Positions 54,798-56,030 of a DNA stretch of 58,569 bases are shown here, piece by piece. Below the pieces are notes generated by a model. That model did not search any database. It saw only the letters and a program-made list of their open reading frames with translations, and was not told where the DNA came from. Made by a program: the position numbers and the translations under genes. How positions within the stretch are numbered: the stretch's first letter is position 1; every line of letters begins with the position of its first letter. The DNA comes from Acidimicrobiia bacterium (GTDB lineage Bacteria > Actinomycetota > Acidimicrobiia > Acidimicrobiales > Aldehydirespiratoraceae), in assembly GCA_024421095.1 (NCBI GenBank), contig JAHQYM010000003.1, positions 1 through 58,569 on the forward strand. The letters run 5' to 3'.

Positions 54798-56030
54798 TCA
54801 TGAATCCAAGGCTTCCGCCCAGCGATTCAAATGGTCTGTAGGAATTCTCAGGTGGGACGGTAGCCTATTCCTTAGATTATCACAGCGGGACGAATCAGCC
54901 CGAAGCGTGTCGCGCAAGTCTGGAAGACTTGCACTATTAGCGATTTCAATCTCCCATGCACGCGCCAACGCGAAATGTCTTTTGAGTTCATGATAGGTTA
55001 ATTCAGTCGGGAGTCGACCTCCTCTGCAAACACTACACTCGCACGCAAAGGCGGGATCTGCCTCCACTATGGCTGATGCCGTGGCTGTGGAAACGTATGC
55101 GTGCAGTTTTCTTACGTAGTAGCGAGCAGGAGCAGCTCCGGTCGAATCCAGAGTTGGCCATTCACGAGATTCACTATACCCAAGACCATTATTGAAGCCA
55201 GCGAGTCCGAACTTACCCAGCAATATACTAAAATACCCACCATAAAGATTGAACAAATCATATTCCTCGTTCAGATCAGCGACAACCGATCTTACCTGAA
55301 CAAGTGAATGCAACGATGCTTGCTTTTCATCGAAGCCTGGAATCCAAAAAAACACCTTAGATGAGAGAGTGCTTGGCACCTGTTCAATCGCTTCTCTAAG
55401 CAGTGACGGGTCGCTCATTGACACCACGGGTGAGATCACTCCTGGATCATCAAGTTGTGTTGCCGCATTCCAAGTCCTACCCACAACCTTCCACCATTTA
55501 TCAGAGAAGGAGCGAACTGCAAAGTACGGACAGAGAATGTAGCTAGGTTCACGCTTTTCGTCATTTCGCTCAGTCGTACCAGAATCACCAGTCGCCTCCG
55601 CTAGGAGTTTCCTATAGCGGTTCAATTTATCTGTGATCTGTGCAGATCTTCCACCATACTGTCTCTGGAAATCAACCATCGATGTAACCATTTCTCTGCA
55701 AACATCGTCAGAATAGAATTCTGGGGAGAAATATCTGCTGTTGCCGTCTACCACCTCACCACCTTTGTTTAGATGAGCATTAACTGTCTCGCCCATTTCG
55801 GCCGCTAACGTGTAGTGGGATGCTCTGGGTGCTTGCAGCATTTCTTGGAAGAGCGGTGTCCGTGGTTCAATCATGTAATCCAATTGGGAAGAAAGCACGA
55901 AAGCCGCAGTAGCATCAGAGTAATACGATGCGATCGTTGAAGGCACTGTCAAGATATCAAAGCACTGCCTCACCTCAAGATCACGAAAGCTCGCCTGGTC
56001 AGAATTTCCGTATGCGAGGAAATGTAGCAT
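54798..56030 (-). CDS. TGT/DpdA-like putative base-exchange (transglycosylase) TIM-barrel protein
   Basis: 410 aa with an alternating beta/alpha pattern. C-terminal CECSVCRGG...YHELKRH resembles the CxCxxCR...H zinc site of tRNA-guanine transglycosylases (E. coli CDCYTCR...HH). N-terminal FLAYGNSDQASF resembles the DS..D/DSGGFQ region. The assignment comes from motifs only. Confidence 0.45.
   Translation of the reverse strand: MLHFLAYGNSDQASFRDLEVRQCFDILTVPSTIASYYSDATAAFVLSSQLDYMIEPRTPLFQEMLQAPRASHYTLAAEMGETVNAHLNKGGEVVDGNSRYFSPEFYSDDVCREMVTSMVDFQRQYGGRSAQITDKLNRYRKLLAEATGDSGTTERNDEKREPSYILCPYFAVRSFSDKWWKVVGRTWNAATQLDDPGVISPVVSMSDPSLLREAIEQVPSTLSSKVFFWIPGFDEKQASLHSLVQVRSVVADLNEEYDLFNLYGGYFSILLGKFGLAGFNNGLGYSESREWPTLDSTGAAPARYYVRKLHAYVSTATASAIVEADPAFACECSVCRGGRLPTELTYHELKRHFALARAWEIEIANSASLPDLRDTLRADSSRCDNLRNRLPSHLRIPTDHLNRWAEALDS

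What the first reader, a model, noticed from the sequence alone, without database searches (positions are those of the whole stretch)
54798..56030. Orphan TGT/DpdA-like protein with no visible 7-deazaguanine supply genes
The CECSVCR(x11)H(x4)H segment near the C-terminus is very close to the TGT zinc knuckle. The N-terminus (YGNSDQASFRD) recalls the Asp-containing substrate loop. Known DpdA enzymes insert preQ0 into DNA and travel with dpdB, dpdC and preQ0 biosynthesis genes. Here the only partners are a nuclease, a membrane protein and a wHTH protein. Many Actinomycetota are reported to lack the queuosine pathway, so the exchanged base, if there is one, is unclear. The enzyme may use a different base, or act only as a glycosylase.
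Basis: partly seen in the sequence, partly recalled or inferred. Interest (0 to 1): 0.7.

Follow-up and report, generated by a model that had tools for sequence, protein, structure and literature searches.

The report
Orphan TGT-fold enzyme in defence cassette
The gene encodes an unannotated enzyme whose predicted shape most resembles the base-swapping tRNA/DNA-guanine transglycosylases but whose active site differs, and it always travels with a small nuclease, a membrane protein and an antitoxin-like protein in bacterial defence islands, so it is probably part of a new anti-phage or toxin-antitoxin system rather than a 7-deazaguanine DNA-modification enzyme.

Summary
The ORF (54798-56030, minus strand, 410 aa) and both motifs are real. 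C330/C332/C335 are kept in 67-70 of 81 diverse homologues and H352 in 80 of 81. H347 is not conserved. The AlphaFold2 model (pLDDT 90) is a TIM barrel with a Cys/His knuckle after strand 8. Its best matches in PDB and in a viral structure library are TGT and phage DpdA, but only weakly (E about 1e-3, TM 0.42-0.52). No sequence or profile method detects TGT (Pfam, NCBIfam, PADLOC, PDB, hhalign). The guanine-recognising Asp is not conserved, and the nucleophile position, if aligned correctly, holds Glu. No preQ0 pathway, tgt or dpdA gene lies in the window or within 10 kb of 24 related loci. The gene is the last of a tightly coupled four-gene operon: Panacea-like protein, three-TM membrane protein, PD-(D/E)xK nuclease, TGT-like enzyme. 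This operon is conserved across at least six bacterial phyla and sits beside DISARM, Lamassu, Hma and TIR genes or on mobile elements. Verdict: a very divergent, unannotated TGT-fold family in a candidate new defence or TA-like system. It is not a DpdA. Base excision or base recognition coupled to nuclease cleavage is the most likely chemistry, but that is inferred.

The parts
57065..57601 (-). Gene 1: Panacea/SocA-like protein (178 aa), a putative antitoxin or sensor
   Evidence: PF13274 SocA_Panacea is below threshold in the window protein (E 0.0037, 18.6 bits against a cutoff of 25.7) and in 10 of 12 orthologues (best 1e-4). PADLOC PDC-M19A scores E 1e-12. The family is strongly conserved (51% mean identity, invariant G64-P65-x-S67). 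It is present upstream of the TGT-like gene in all 15 distinct genome loci except L016.
56476..57045 (-). Gene 2: membrane protein (189 aa from the ATG at 57045; the longest ORF reaches 57132), a putative membrane-disrupting effector or toxin
   Evidence: 14 of 15 orthologues show an N-terminal hydrophobic segment, about 95 soluble residues and a C-terminal TM hairpin. The remaining one (L009) scores only the hairpin. Median pI is 9.1. Sequence diverges fast, with only R77 invariant. The SLATT_1 hit is weak (E 0.004, 17 bits against a cutoff of 41). A 19-nt spacer follows gene 1.
56030..56467 (-). Gene 3: minimal PD-(D/E)xK nuclease (145 aa from the ATG at 56467; the longest ORF reaches 56527)
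   Evidence: D40, E53, K55 and Q65 are invariant across phyla. The AF2 model has pLDDT 91. Foldseek PDB hits are SPO1766 3dnx (E 6.5e-7), SfsA-DNA, NucS, Hjc, Can2/Card1 and McrC. An 8-nt spacer with AGGAG follows gene 2.
54798..56030 (-). Gene 4: TGT-fold TIM-barrel enzyme with a C-terminal Cys3His knuckle (410 aa), the protein in the finding
   Evidence: The AF2 model has pLDDT 90.3 and pTM 0.91, with eight beta/alpha units, a hairpin at 303-314, the knuckle and three long helices. Top Foldseek hits are TGT (PDB) and DpdA-type proteins (BFVD). The family has 825 cluster representatives and no annotation. Its start overlaps the stop of gene 3 (TAATG) with GGAG upstream.
55026..55043 (-). Codons for C330-E-C332-S-V-C335, the CxCxxC knuckle
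   Evidence: C330 is kept in 67, C332 in 69 and C335 in 70 of 81 members. The CCCH pattern is complete in 65 of 81. About 10 members lose all three Cys together. hhalign pairs the motif with E. coli Tgt C302/C304/C307.
54975..54977 (-). Codon for H352, the probable fourth metal ligand
   Evidence: H352 is kept in 80 of 81 members, including those that lack the Cys triad. One sub-alignment pairs it with the Tgt zinc-ligand His in TIHN.
55866..55868 (-). Codon for E55 (Asp in most homologues), in the IDPxTxxFQ motif at the end of strand 3; the candidate general acid/base
   Evidence: This position is acidic in all 81 members (76 D, 5 E). It pairs with the Asp of Tgt ILTDSGGFQ and of DpdA FLDSGAF in separate sub-alignments, neither statistically significant.
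55170..55172 (-). Codon for E287, in GLGYSE at the end of strand 8; the candidate nucleophile
   Evidence: 65 E and 6 D among 81 members. The full-length hhalign alignment pairs it with Tgt D264 in GIDMFD, but a sub-alignment gives a different register. It lies in the low-confidence loop 285-299.
55326..55328 (-). Codon for E235, in PGFDE at the end of strand 6
   Evidence: E in 72 of 81 members. It is paired with E. coli Tgt E219 of GGLAVGE.

Best explanation
The 410-aa protein belongs to an unannotated family whose fold is a very divergent version of the tRNA/DNA-guanine transglycosylase architecture: a TIM barrel with a Cys3His metal knuckle inserted after strand 8. It is not a DpdA and has no dedicated 7-deazaguanine supply. 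It is the last gene of a mobile four-gene operon that behaves like a defence-island or toxin-antitoxin module.

Proposed working (inferred):
- The TGT-like enzyme and the translationally coupled PD-(D/E)xK nuclease form a nucleic-acid-targeting pair. The barrel flips out and excises, or simply recognises, a base. That base is probably not guanine or preQ0, because the guanine-reading Asp is missing and the pocket is lined with invariant Tyr, Arg and His. The nuclease then cuts the marked or abasic nucleic acid.
- The Panacea-like protein holds the three-TM membrane protein in check, as in a PanA-PanT pair. Release of the membrane protein would collapse the membrane as an abortive-infection back-up.

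Shown: the fold class, residue conservation, operon structure, cross-phylum conservation, defence-island context, and absence of linked que/dpd genes. Inferred: the substrate, excision rather than exchange, complex formation, and a defence role.
For: Fold:
- The AF2 model has pLDDT 90.3 and pTM 0.91.
- Seven of the top ten PDB matches are bacterial, mouse or human TGT (E 8e-4 to 1e-2, TMq 0.32-0.46; five of them 0.42-0.46).
- The top named BFVD matches are viral queuine tRNA-ribosyltransferases, i.e. DpdA-type proteins.
- The knuckle lies in the post-strand-8 region, as in TGT and DpdA (PMC10164549).

Active site:
- All near-invariant residues sit at the C-terminal ends of barrel strands or in the following hairpin: D/E55, Y169, E235, Y263-G-G, E287, R/K289, R303, Y305, H310.

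System:
- The four genes keep the same order and strand in all 15 distinct genome loci. These come from Acidimicrobiia, Opitutaceae, Dormibacteraeota, Pirellulales, Phycisphaerales and Chloroflexota. A 28%-identical metagenomic member has the same layout.
- Junctions are overlapping or short, with ribosome-binding sites.
- The nuclease has an intact D-ExK-Q motif and fold.
- Panacea antitoxins are known to neutralise TM toxins, with nucleases or nucleotide-modifying enzymes as occasional accessory genes (PMC8832971).

Context:
- Flanking genes include DrmMI (E 0) and LmuB (8e-40). In one lineage the cassette is inserted between HmaB and HmaC. Elsewhere it lies near a ThsB-like TIR and T4SS/relaxase genes, or integrases and IS elements.
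- GC falls to 0.50 from 0.55 over the cassette.
- No que, tgt or dpdA gene lies nearby.

Precedents:
- Glycosylases that defend by excising modified phage bases (bioRxiv 10.1101/2025.10.29.685425).
- TGT-fold proteins repurposed in immunity: Cap10 (bioRxiv 10.1101/2025.04.06.647259) and BRC systems (PMC12839542).
Against: - The similarity to TGT is weak. Foldseek gives E about 1e-3, TM below 0.5 on the query and rmsd 7-9 A.
- hhalign probability is below 1% against TGT and DpdA, and scores barely exceed reversed-profile nulls. The residue equivalences are therefore hints, not proof.
- I could not superpose coordinates.
- The candidate nucleophile lies in a loop with pLDDT below 50, and its alignment register is unstable.
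- About 10 of 81 members lack the Cys triad.
- No PADLOC model matches the TGT-like protein, and no experiment links any of the four genes to defence.
- Defence-island location is only correlative.
- The membrane protein is not a confident SLATT member, and the Panacea hit is below Pfam's threshold.
- A preQ0 supply elsewhere in the genome is not excluded.
Confidence: 0.45

Rival explanations
1. It is a true, if divergent, DpdA-type DNA transglycosylase. It would insert preQ0 or another 7-deazaguanine made by genes elsewhere in the genome into host DNA, and the adjacent nuclease would restrict unmodified DNA, making a compact Dpd-like restriction-modification system.
For: - The fold is TGT/DpdA-like and the zinc knuckle is conserved.
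- Position 55 is acidic throughout, opposite the TGT/DpdA general acid.
- A nuclease is translationally coupled to it.
- BRC systems show TGT homologues working without DpdB or DpdC (PMC12839542).
Against: - Pfam TGT does not hit any of 81 members.
- The base-recognising Asp, invariant in TGT and DpdA (PMC10164549), aligns to hydrophobic YILC. The invariant residues at the end of strand 4 are Pro and Tyr.
- The nucleophile position holds Glu at best.
- No folE, queC, queD or queE gene lies within 10 kb in 24 loci, whereas phage 9g DpdA sits directly beside them.
- There is no DpdB or DpdC.
- Hosts span six or more phyla, including Actinomycetota, which from general knowledge often lack the queuosine pathway. 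A mobile cassette dependent on host preQ0 would often fail.
Confidence: 0.12
2. It is a TIM-barrel enzyme that acts on a small molecule such as a nucleotide, NAD-type cofactor, nucleoside or sugar, and any TGT resemblance is only ancient or convergent. In the cassette it would deplete a metabolite or make or destroy a signal, while the nuclease and membrane protein act as the effectors.
For: - All sequence methods fail to link it to TGT.
- Below the TGT hits the Foldseek list is filled with aldolases, dehydroquinases, epimerases and glycosidases at only slightly worse scores.
- The conserved E, E, H, Y and R residues at strand ends fit many hydrolase or lyase chemistries.
- pI is about 6, with no evident basic character.
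Against: - TGT and DpdA rank first in two independent libraries, with the longest alignments.
- To my knowledge a CxCxxC...H knuckle inserted after strand 8 is a hallmark of the TGT superfamily among TIM barrels.
- Bacterial TGT and DpdA have similar pI values, so charge does not discriminate.
- Tight coupling to a DNA-type nuclease favours a nucleic-acid substrate.
Confidence: 0.2
3. It is a non-catalytic sensor or scaffold, like Cap10. The TGT-like pocket would bind a ligand or a partner protein, possibly phage-derived, and thereby control the nuclease or the release of the membrane toxin.
For: - Cap10 shows that a TGT-fold protein in a defence operon can be remodelled to bind a protein partner (bioRxiv 10.1101/2025.04.06.647259).
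- The canonical Asp triad is incomplete here.
- A flexible, highly conserved loop (285-299) could be a binding element.
Against: - Acidic residues at 55, 235 and 287, plus R303, Y305 and H310, are very strongly conserved at catalytic-face positions across 25%-identity homologues. This looks like an active enzyme.
- Cap10 lacks the zinc site, whereas this family mostly keeps it.
Confidence: 0.1

Closest known systems
Bacterial/eukaryotic tRNA-guanine transglycosylase (Tgt/QTRT1; Pfam PF01702)
   Same: - TIM-barrel core.
- CxCxxC...H metal knuckle in the region after strand 8.
- Best Foldseek matches in PDB.
- An acidic residue after strand 3 in a D...FQ motif; LYGG against LMGVG after strand 7; FDE against VGE after strand 6 (motif level only).
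   Different: - No significant sequence or profile similarity.
- TM only 0.42-0.52.
- It lacks the N-terminal three-stranded sheet (strand 1 starts at residue 2) and has a roughly 100-residue helical insert after strand 3.
- The base-recognising Asp is absent, and the nucleophile is Glu at best.
- The His ligand lies 17 residues after the last Cys, against 26 in E. coli Tgt.
- It is not linked to queA or que genes.
DpdA, the DNA 7-deazaguanine transglycosylase of Dpd systems and phages
   Same: - TGT-type fold.
- Top named hits in the viral structure library.
- Found in conflict and mobile contexts.
- A large insertion after strand 8 makes up about 30% of the protein (PMC10164549).
   Different: - DpdA keeps all three invariant Asp residues and travels with folE, queC, queD, queE and usually dpdB and dpdC (PMC10164549). 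None of these is present here.
- hhalign probability is 0.3%.
- The partners differ: Panacea-like protein, membrane protein and a minimal nuclease.
Cap10 of type IV CBASS
   Same: A TGT-fold protein repurposed inside an anti-phage operon and away from tRNA (bioRxiv 10.1101/2025.04.06.647259).
   Different: Cap10 is clearly homologous to QTRT1, lacks the zinc site, partners with a QueC-like Cap9 and a CD-NTase, and binds a deazaguanylated protein N-terminus. No QueC-like gene or CD-NTase is present here.
PanA-PanT toxin-antitoxin pairs (Panacea/DUF4065 antitoxin with a membrane toxin)
   Same: Genes 1 and 2 have the PanA-first layout, a 19-nt spacer and a TM-helix partner. Accessory nucleases or nucleotide-modifying enzymes have been reported for some PanAT loci (PMC8832971).
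   Different: The Panacea hit is below Pfam's threshold. The membrane protein is about 190 aa with three TM segments, not a short peptide. The accessory nuclease and TGT-like genes are always present here, not occasional.
Defence DNA glycosylases (Brig1, Dag1/Dag2)
   Same: The proposed logic is the same: excise a non-canonical phage base, then break the DNA (bioRxiv 10.1101/2025.10.29.685425).
   Different: Per that preprint Brig1 is a uracil-DNA-glycosylase homologue, and the preprint found Dag1/Dag2 by structural similarity to known DNA glycosylases. None of these is a TIM barrel as far as I know (the fold of Dag1/Dag2 rests on my reading of the abstract and passages, not on a test). They are described there without the partner genes seen here. 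No activity has been shown for the protein in this window.

Membership tests
TGT/DpdA superfamily | (beta/alpha)8 TIM-barrel core | tested here: met
   The AF2 model (pLDDT 90.3) has eight beta/alpha units. All Foldseek hits are TIM barrels.
TGT/DpdA superfamily | Structural zinc site (Cys3His) in the insertion between strand 8 and helix 8 | tested here: met
   C330, C332, C335 and H352 lie after strand 8 (278-280). CCCH is complete in 65 of 81 members, and about 10 members have lost the triad as a unit. Metal binding itself was not tested.
TGT/DpdA superfamily | Significant sequence or profile similarity (Pfam PF01702 or profile-profile) | tested here: not met
   None of 81 members hits PF01702 at E<=1. 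The PDB profile search finds nothing. hhalign gives 0.7% against TGT and 0.3% against DpdA, though the TGT-versus-DpdA control reached only 10% with these narrow profiles.
[not shown]
   Foldseek gives TMq 0.42-0.46, TMt 0.46-0.52, rmsd 7-9 A and E about 1e-3. TGT is nevertheless the top-ranked fold.
TGT/DpdA superfamily | Invariant general acid/base Asp after strand 3 (Ec D89, Zm D102, Sm DpdA D95) | tested here: inconclusive
   Position 55 is acidic in all 81 members and pairs with this Asp in sub-alignments against both TGT and DpdA. Those alignments are not significant (P 0.25-0.3).
TGT/DpdA superfamily | Invariant base-recognising Asp after strand 4 (Ec D143, Zm D156, DpdA D130) | tested here: not met
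   It aligns to hydrophobic YILC. The conserved residues at the end of strand 4 are P168 (77 of 81) and Y169 (81 of 81). This depends on a non-significant alignment.
TGT/DpdA superfamily | Invariant nucleophile Asp after strand 8 (Ec D264, Zm D280, DpdA D256) | tested here: inconclusive
   E287 (65 E, 6 D) pairs with D264 in the full-length alignment but not in a C-terminal sub-alignment. It is Glu rather than Asp and lies in a low-pLDDT loop.
DpdA / Dpd system | Genomic linkage to preQ0 synthesis genes (folE, queD, queE, queC) and to dpdB/dpdC | tested here: not met
   tblastn with 9g FolE, QueD, QueC, QueE and DpdA and E. coli Tgt and QueA found nothing at E<=0.1 in the window plus 24 loci. 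Pfam listings of the neighbours show no such genes. Whole genomes were not searched.
TGT/DpdA superfamily | Guanine or 7-deazaguanine exchange activity on tRNA or DNA | not testable with these tools
   This needs a biochemical assay.
PanA-PanT (Panacea) toxin-antitoxin | Antitoxin matches Pfam PF13274 at the gathering threshold | tested here: not met
   18.6 bits against a cutoff of 25.7. Ten of 12 orthologues give sub-threshold hits, best E 1e-4. PADLOC PDC-M19A scores 1e-12.
PanA-PanT (Panacea) toxin-antitoxin | Adjacent gene within 100 nt on the same strand encoding a plausible toxin (here with TM helices) | tested here: met
   A 19-nt spacer and a conserved three-TM topology. The criteria are those of PMC8832971.
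PanA-PanT (Panacea) toxin-antitoxin | Toxicity of the partner and its neutralisation by the antitoxin | not testable with these tools
   This needs expression experiments.
PD-(D/E)xK nuclease superfamily (gene 3) | Restriction-endonuclease-like fold with a D...(D/E)xK catalytic motif | tested here: met
   D40, E53, K55 and Q65 are invariant. Foldseek hits 3dnx at E 6.5e-7, then SfsA, NucS and Hjc.
SLATT membrane effectors (gene 2) | Match to SLATT models at the curated cutoff | tested here: not met
   NCBIfam SLATT_1 scores 17.1 bits against a cutoff of 41, and SLATT_2 13.3 against 40. Only the C-terminal TM hairpin resembles SLATT.
Any catalogued defence system (PADLOC v2) | The TGT-like protein matches a PADLOC model | tested here: not met
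   No PADLOC family matches at E<=1.

The most novel reading that the evidence does not exclude
The family is a new deep branch of the TGT superfamily that has dropped 7-deazaguanine chemistry. It would work with a dedicated PD-(D/E)xK nuclease as a base-excising, or otherwise base-specific, DNA- or RNA-targeting module. Together with a Panacea-controlled membrane toxin this would form a previously undescribed four-gene anti-phage system spread by horizontal transfer across at least six bacterial phyla.
Probability: 0.3. Interest if true: 0.8.

Novelty: new variant of a known kind. Interest (0 to 1): 0.6.

Why it matters
TGT-fold enzymes are the only known catalysts that swap bases in intact tRNA and DNA. 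Every characterised defence-related member (DpdA, Cap10, the BRC TGT) is tied to 7-deazaguanine metabolism. A conserved, mobile TGT-fold family with no such supply and a rebuilt base pocket would extend the chemistry of this fold, either to a different base or to plain excision. It would also add a new enzyme class to defence systems that recognise nucleic-acid bases. The four-gene cassette is compact, conserved, unannotated in Pfam, NCBIfam and PADLOC, and directly testable by heterologous expression. It also gives a case where a Panacea-type antitoxin module is obligatorily joined to an enzymatic pair, which bears on how toxin-antitoxin modules are recruited into immunity.

Tried and rejected
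- **Family libraries.** Pfam, NCBIfam, PADLOC and PHROGs scans of the 410-aa protein gave no hit. A Pfam scan of 81 family members gave only scattered chance hits and no TGT.
- **PDB sequence searches.** phmmer and the profile search gave only chance matches: an acyl-CoA transferase at E 0.13 and FliG at E 0.32.
- **hhalign against self-built profiles.** I compared the family with 80 gammaproteobacterial Tgt sequences and with 13 distinct 9g-like DpdA sequences. Probability was below 1%. The positive control (TGT versus DpdA) reached only 10%, and reversed-profile nulls scored almost as high. I therefore treat this test as insensitive, not as evidence against homology.
- **E. coli Tgt tblastn against phages.** It found only true Tgt genes and no DpdA, so I took DpdA from the phage 9g record.
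- **Structure prediction of the nuclease from locus-derived sequences.** I repeated it with database homologues.
- **Promoter and terminator scans.** Counts were no higher than in shuffled sequence.
- **tRNA search for island borders.** None found.
- **Isoelectric point as a proxy for nucleic-acid binding.** TGT, DpdA and this family all have pI about 6, so it does not discriminate.
- **The downstream 80-aa and 235-aa genes.** I considered them as part of the system and rejected this, because they accompany only the closest relatives.
- **H347 as a zinc ligand.** Rejected, because it is kept in only 17 of 81 members.
- **Literature.** Searches for this cassette found nothing.
- **Whole-genome search for tgt and que genes.** Not possible with the tools at hand.
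Full report
**1. The observation**

The ORF at 54798-56030 on the minus strand encodes 410 aa. The identical protein is a called gene on several public metagenome contigs. The N-terminal YGNSDQASFRD occupies residues 7-17.

The protein has 227 or more full-length homologues in the 90%-clustered database, all unnamed and without Pfam domains. An exhaustive profile search finds 825 cluster representatives at E<=1e-3, of which 665 are at E<=1e-10. The 150 listed are at most about 450 aa long, and those shorter than about 390 aa cover only part of the profile.

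In a close alignment of 49 sequences, C330, C332, C335 and H352 are at least 90% conserved. In a broad alignment of 81 sequences with 25% mean column identity, the counts are:

| Residue | Kept in (of 81) |
|---|---|
| C330 | 67 |
| C332 | 69 |
| C335 | 70 |
| H352 | 80 |
| H347 | 17 |

The CCCH pattern is complete in 65 of 81 members. About 10 members lose all three Cys together while keeping H352 and every other conserved residue. This is the behaviour of a structural metal site that some lineages have dispensed with.

**2. What the protein is**

No curated library recognises it: Pfam, NCBIfam, PADLOC and PHROGs give nothing. None of the 81 family members gives even a weak Pfam TGT hit. PDB sequence and profile searches give only chance matches.

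AlphaFold2 with the family alignment gives a confident model (pLDDT 90.3, pTM 0.91). Its elements are:
- eight beta/alpha units, with strands at 2-6, 26-30, 51-55, 164-166, 202-205, 225-229, 258-261 and 278-280;
- a helical insert of about 100 residues after strand 3;
- a low-confidence but highly conserved loop at 285-299;
- a beta hairpin at 303-314;
- the CxCxxC knuckle;
- three long helices, the first carrying H352.

Foldseek against PDB puts bacterial, mouse and human tRNA-guanine transglycosylases in seven of the top ten places. Values there are E 8e-4 to 1e-2, TMq 0.32-0.46 (five of them 0.42-0.46), TMt 0.34-0.52 and rmsd 7-13 A (7-9 A for those five). Below them come generic TIM barrels such as aldolases, dehydroquinases, DHDPS and epimerases, with TMq near 0.3. 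Against the viral library the best named hits are viral queuine tRNA-ribosyltransferases, which are DpdA-type proteins, at E 7e-3 to 5e-2 and TMt about 0.5.

**3. Testing homology and the active site**

I built a Tgt profile from E. coli Tgt plus 79 species and a DpdA profile from phage 9g DpdA plus viral relatives. hhalign gives 0.7% probability against Tgt and 0.3% against DpdA. The positive control, Tgt against DpdA, reaches only 10%. Reversed-profile nulls score almost as high as the real comparisons: 21.4 against 19.9 for Tgt, and 17.7 against 13.4 for DpdA. Sequence therefore cannot decide the question either way.

The low-stringency alignment is collinear across strands 4 to 8 and the knuckle. 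It gives these pairings:

| This protein | E. coli Tgt |
|---|---|
| E235 in PGFDE | E219 in GGLAVGE |
| LYGG | LMGVG |
| GLGYSE287 | GIDMFD264 (nucleophile) |
| C330/C332/C335 | C302/C304/C307 |

Separate N-terminal sub-alignments against Tgt and against DpdA both place residue 55 opposite the general acid/base Asp. Residue 55 is acidic in all 81 members (76 D, 5 E) and lies in the IDPxTxxFQ motif. The opposing motifs are ILTDSGGFQ in Tgt and FLDSGAF in DpdA. A C-terminal sub-alignment pairs H352 with the Tgt zinc-ligand His, but it shifts the register around E287.

The base-recognising Asp, which is invariant in TGT and DpdA (PMC10164549), falls on hydrophobic YILC. The conserved residues at the end of strand 4 are P168 and the invariant Y169.

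All near-invariant residues lie on the catalytic face of the barrel or in the hairpin: D/E55, Y169, E235, Y263, E287, R/K289, R303, Y305, H310 and E360. This argues for an active enzyme with a rebuilt, aromatic- and Arg-rich pocket.

**4. The surroundings**

All four genes lie on the minus strand and form a tight operon.

| Gene | Coordinates | Product | Junction with the next gene |
|---|---|---|---|
| 1 | 57065-57601 | Panacea-like protein | 19-nt spacer |
| 2 | 56476-57045 | membrane protein | 8-nt spacer with AGGAG |
| 3 | 56030-56467 | nuclease | TAATG overlap, GGAG upstream |
| 4 | 54798-56030 | TGT-like enzyme | - |

The same four genes, in the same order, occur at all 15 distinct loci recovered from the species-genome collection. 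The hosts are Acidimicrobiia (mostly sponge-associated MAGs), Opitutaceae, Dormibacteraeota, Pirellulales, Phycisphaerales and Chloroflexota. A 28%-identical metagenomic member has the same layout. Some copies are decaying. An IS element splits the cassette in L009 and a 4.4-kb insert splits it in L015. L016 has a truncated enzyme and no gene 1.

- **Gene 1.** It gives sub-threshold SocA_Panacea hits in 10 of 12 orthologues and matches PADLOC PDC-M19A at 1e-12.
- **Gene 2.** It keeps an N-terminal TM segment, about 95 soluble residues and a C-terminal TM hairpin, while its sequence diverges fast.
- **Gene 3.** It has invariant D40, E53, K55 and Q65. Its confident model matches PD-(D/E)xK nucleases, including SPO1766 (E 6.5e-7), SfsA, NucS and Hjc.

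The downstream 80-aa and 235-aa genes accompany only the closest relatives and are a separate module.

**5. Context**

The cassette lies in variable regions rich in defence genes:
- directly beside DrmMI (E 0) in L017;
- beside LmuB (8e-40) in L016;
- inserted between HmaB and HmaC in L005/L010;
- near a ThsB-like TIR and T4SS/relaxase genes in L008;
- among integrases and IS elements in L009.

In the window it sits next to an AlbA_2/Schlafen-HATPase gene. GC is 0.50 over 54-58 kb against 0.55 in most of the rest of the window.

No FolE, QueD, QueC, QueE, Tgt, QueA or DpdA homologue is detectable in the window or in the 24 related loci, 459 kb in all. By contrast, phage 9g DpdA lies directly beside folE, queD, queC and queE. 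The whole-genome question could not be addressed with the tools at hand.

**6. Mechanism**

Shown:
- a TGT-like TIM-barrel fold with a conserved knuckle;
- an intact nuclease;
- a membrane protein and a Panacea-like protein;
- operon coupling;
- cross-phylum mobility and defence-island context;
- no linked 7-deazaguanine supply.

Inferred:
- Genes 1 and 2 work as a PanA-PanT-type antitoxin and membrane-toxin pair. Panacea antitoxins neutralise TM toxins, and some loci carry accessory nucleases or nucleotide-modifying enzymes (PMC8832971).
- Genes 3 and 4 form a nucleic-acid-targeting pair. The barrel would flip out and excise or recognise a base, and the nuclease would cut.
- Without the guanine-reading Asp and without a preQ0 supply, excision or recognition of some other base seems more likely than preQ0 exchange. 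Possibly the target is a phage-modified base.

Precedents exist for defence glycosylases that target modified phage bases (bioRxiv 10.1101/2025.10.29.685425). There are also precedents for TGT-fold proteins repurposed in immunity: Cap10 (bioRxiv 10.1101/2025.04.06.647259) and BRC systems (PMC12839542).

Three rivals remain open:
- a true DpdA using preQ0 made elsewhere in the genome;
- a small-molecule TIM-barrel enzyme only remotely or convergently TGT-like;
- a non-catalytic, Cap10-like sensor.

**7. Comparison and novelty**

The protein works, at most, like a TGT-fold N-glycosidic enzyme. It fails several membership tests for TGT/DpdA:
- profile similarity;
- close structural superposition;
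- the base-recognising Asp;
- que/dpd gene linkage.

It meets two tests: the TIM barrel and the zinc knuckle in the right place. Two more are inconclusive: the general acid and the nucleophile.

Neither the family nor the cassette appears in Pfam, NCBIfam or PADLOC, or in the literature I could search. I rate it a new variant of a known kind, with moderately high interest. It is a compact, testable candidate defence system built around a divergent member of a fold otherwise tied to 7-deazaguanine chemistry.

Noticed in passing
window 53439-54385 (minus strand): An overlapping gene pair of 80 aa (54143-54385) and 235 aa (53439-54146). The larger gives a weak NTP_transf_2 hit (E 0.11). The pair is found only beside the closest relatives of the cassette, so it is probably a separate small TA-like module of the nucleotidyltransferase type.
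   Followed up: partly
window 58103-58569 (minus strand, cut by the window end): The C-terminal part of a 591-aa AlbA_2/Schlafen plus HATPase_c_4 protein directly upstream of the cassette. Its full-length copy in L001 hits a PADLOC pAgo-associated profile at E 3e-20.
   Followed up: partly
L005/L010 5606-14640: In one Candidatus Aldehydirespirator genome the cassette is inserted between the HmaB methylase and the HEPN-fused HmaC (DUF499) ATPase of an Hma/BREX-related system. This looks like a defence system nested inside another.
   Followed up: partly
L009 8867-9958; L015 5186-9576; L016 8866-11068: Decaying copies of the cassette. A DDE_3 transposase lies between the nuclease and the TGT-like gene in L009. 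A 4.4-kb insert lies between the membrane and nuclease genes in L015. L016 has a TGT-like gene lacking its first 53 residues and no Panacea-like gene, in a MAG that also carries an intact copy (L017).
   Followed up: no
L006/L012 11385-15053: An orphan DUF1156 methyltransferase without a DUF499 partner, followed by an Fpg/Nei-type DNA glycosylase gene, lies immediately downstream of the cassette.
   Followed up: no
TGT-like protein, residue 352 (window 54975-54977): H352 is kept in 80 of 81 family members, including those that have lost the whole Cys triad. It may therefore have a role beyond metal binding.
   Followed up: no
window 16001-18000 and 22001-34000: GC dips to 0.485 at 16-18 kb. 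AT skew is strongly negative (-0.16 to -0.27) over 22-34 kb. Both are unexplained and unrelated to the finding.
   Followed up: no
window 46576-52729: The genes next to the island look like housekeeping genes. They are a TgpA-type transglutaminase membrane protein, DUF3040, a family-2 glycosyltransferase and an OmpR-type response regulator with a HAMP/HisKA sensor kinase. They mark the likely edge of the island near 53.4 kb.
   Followed up: no
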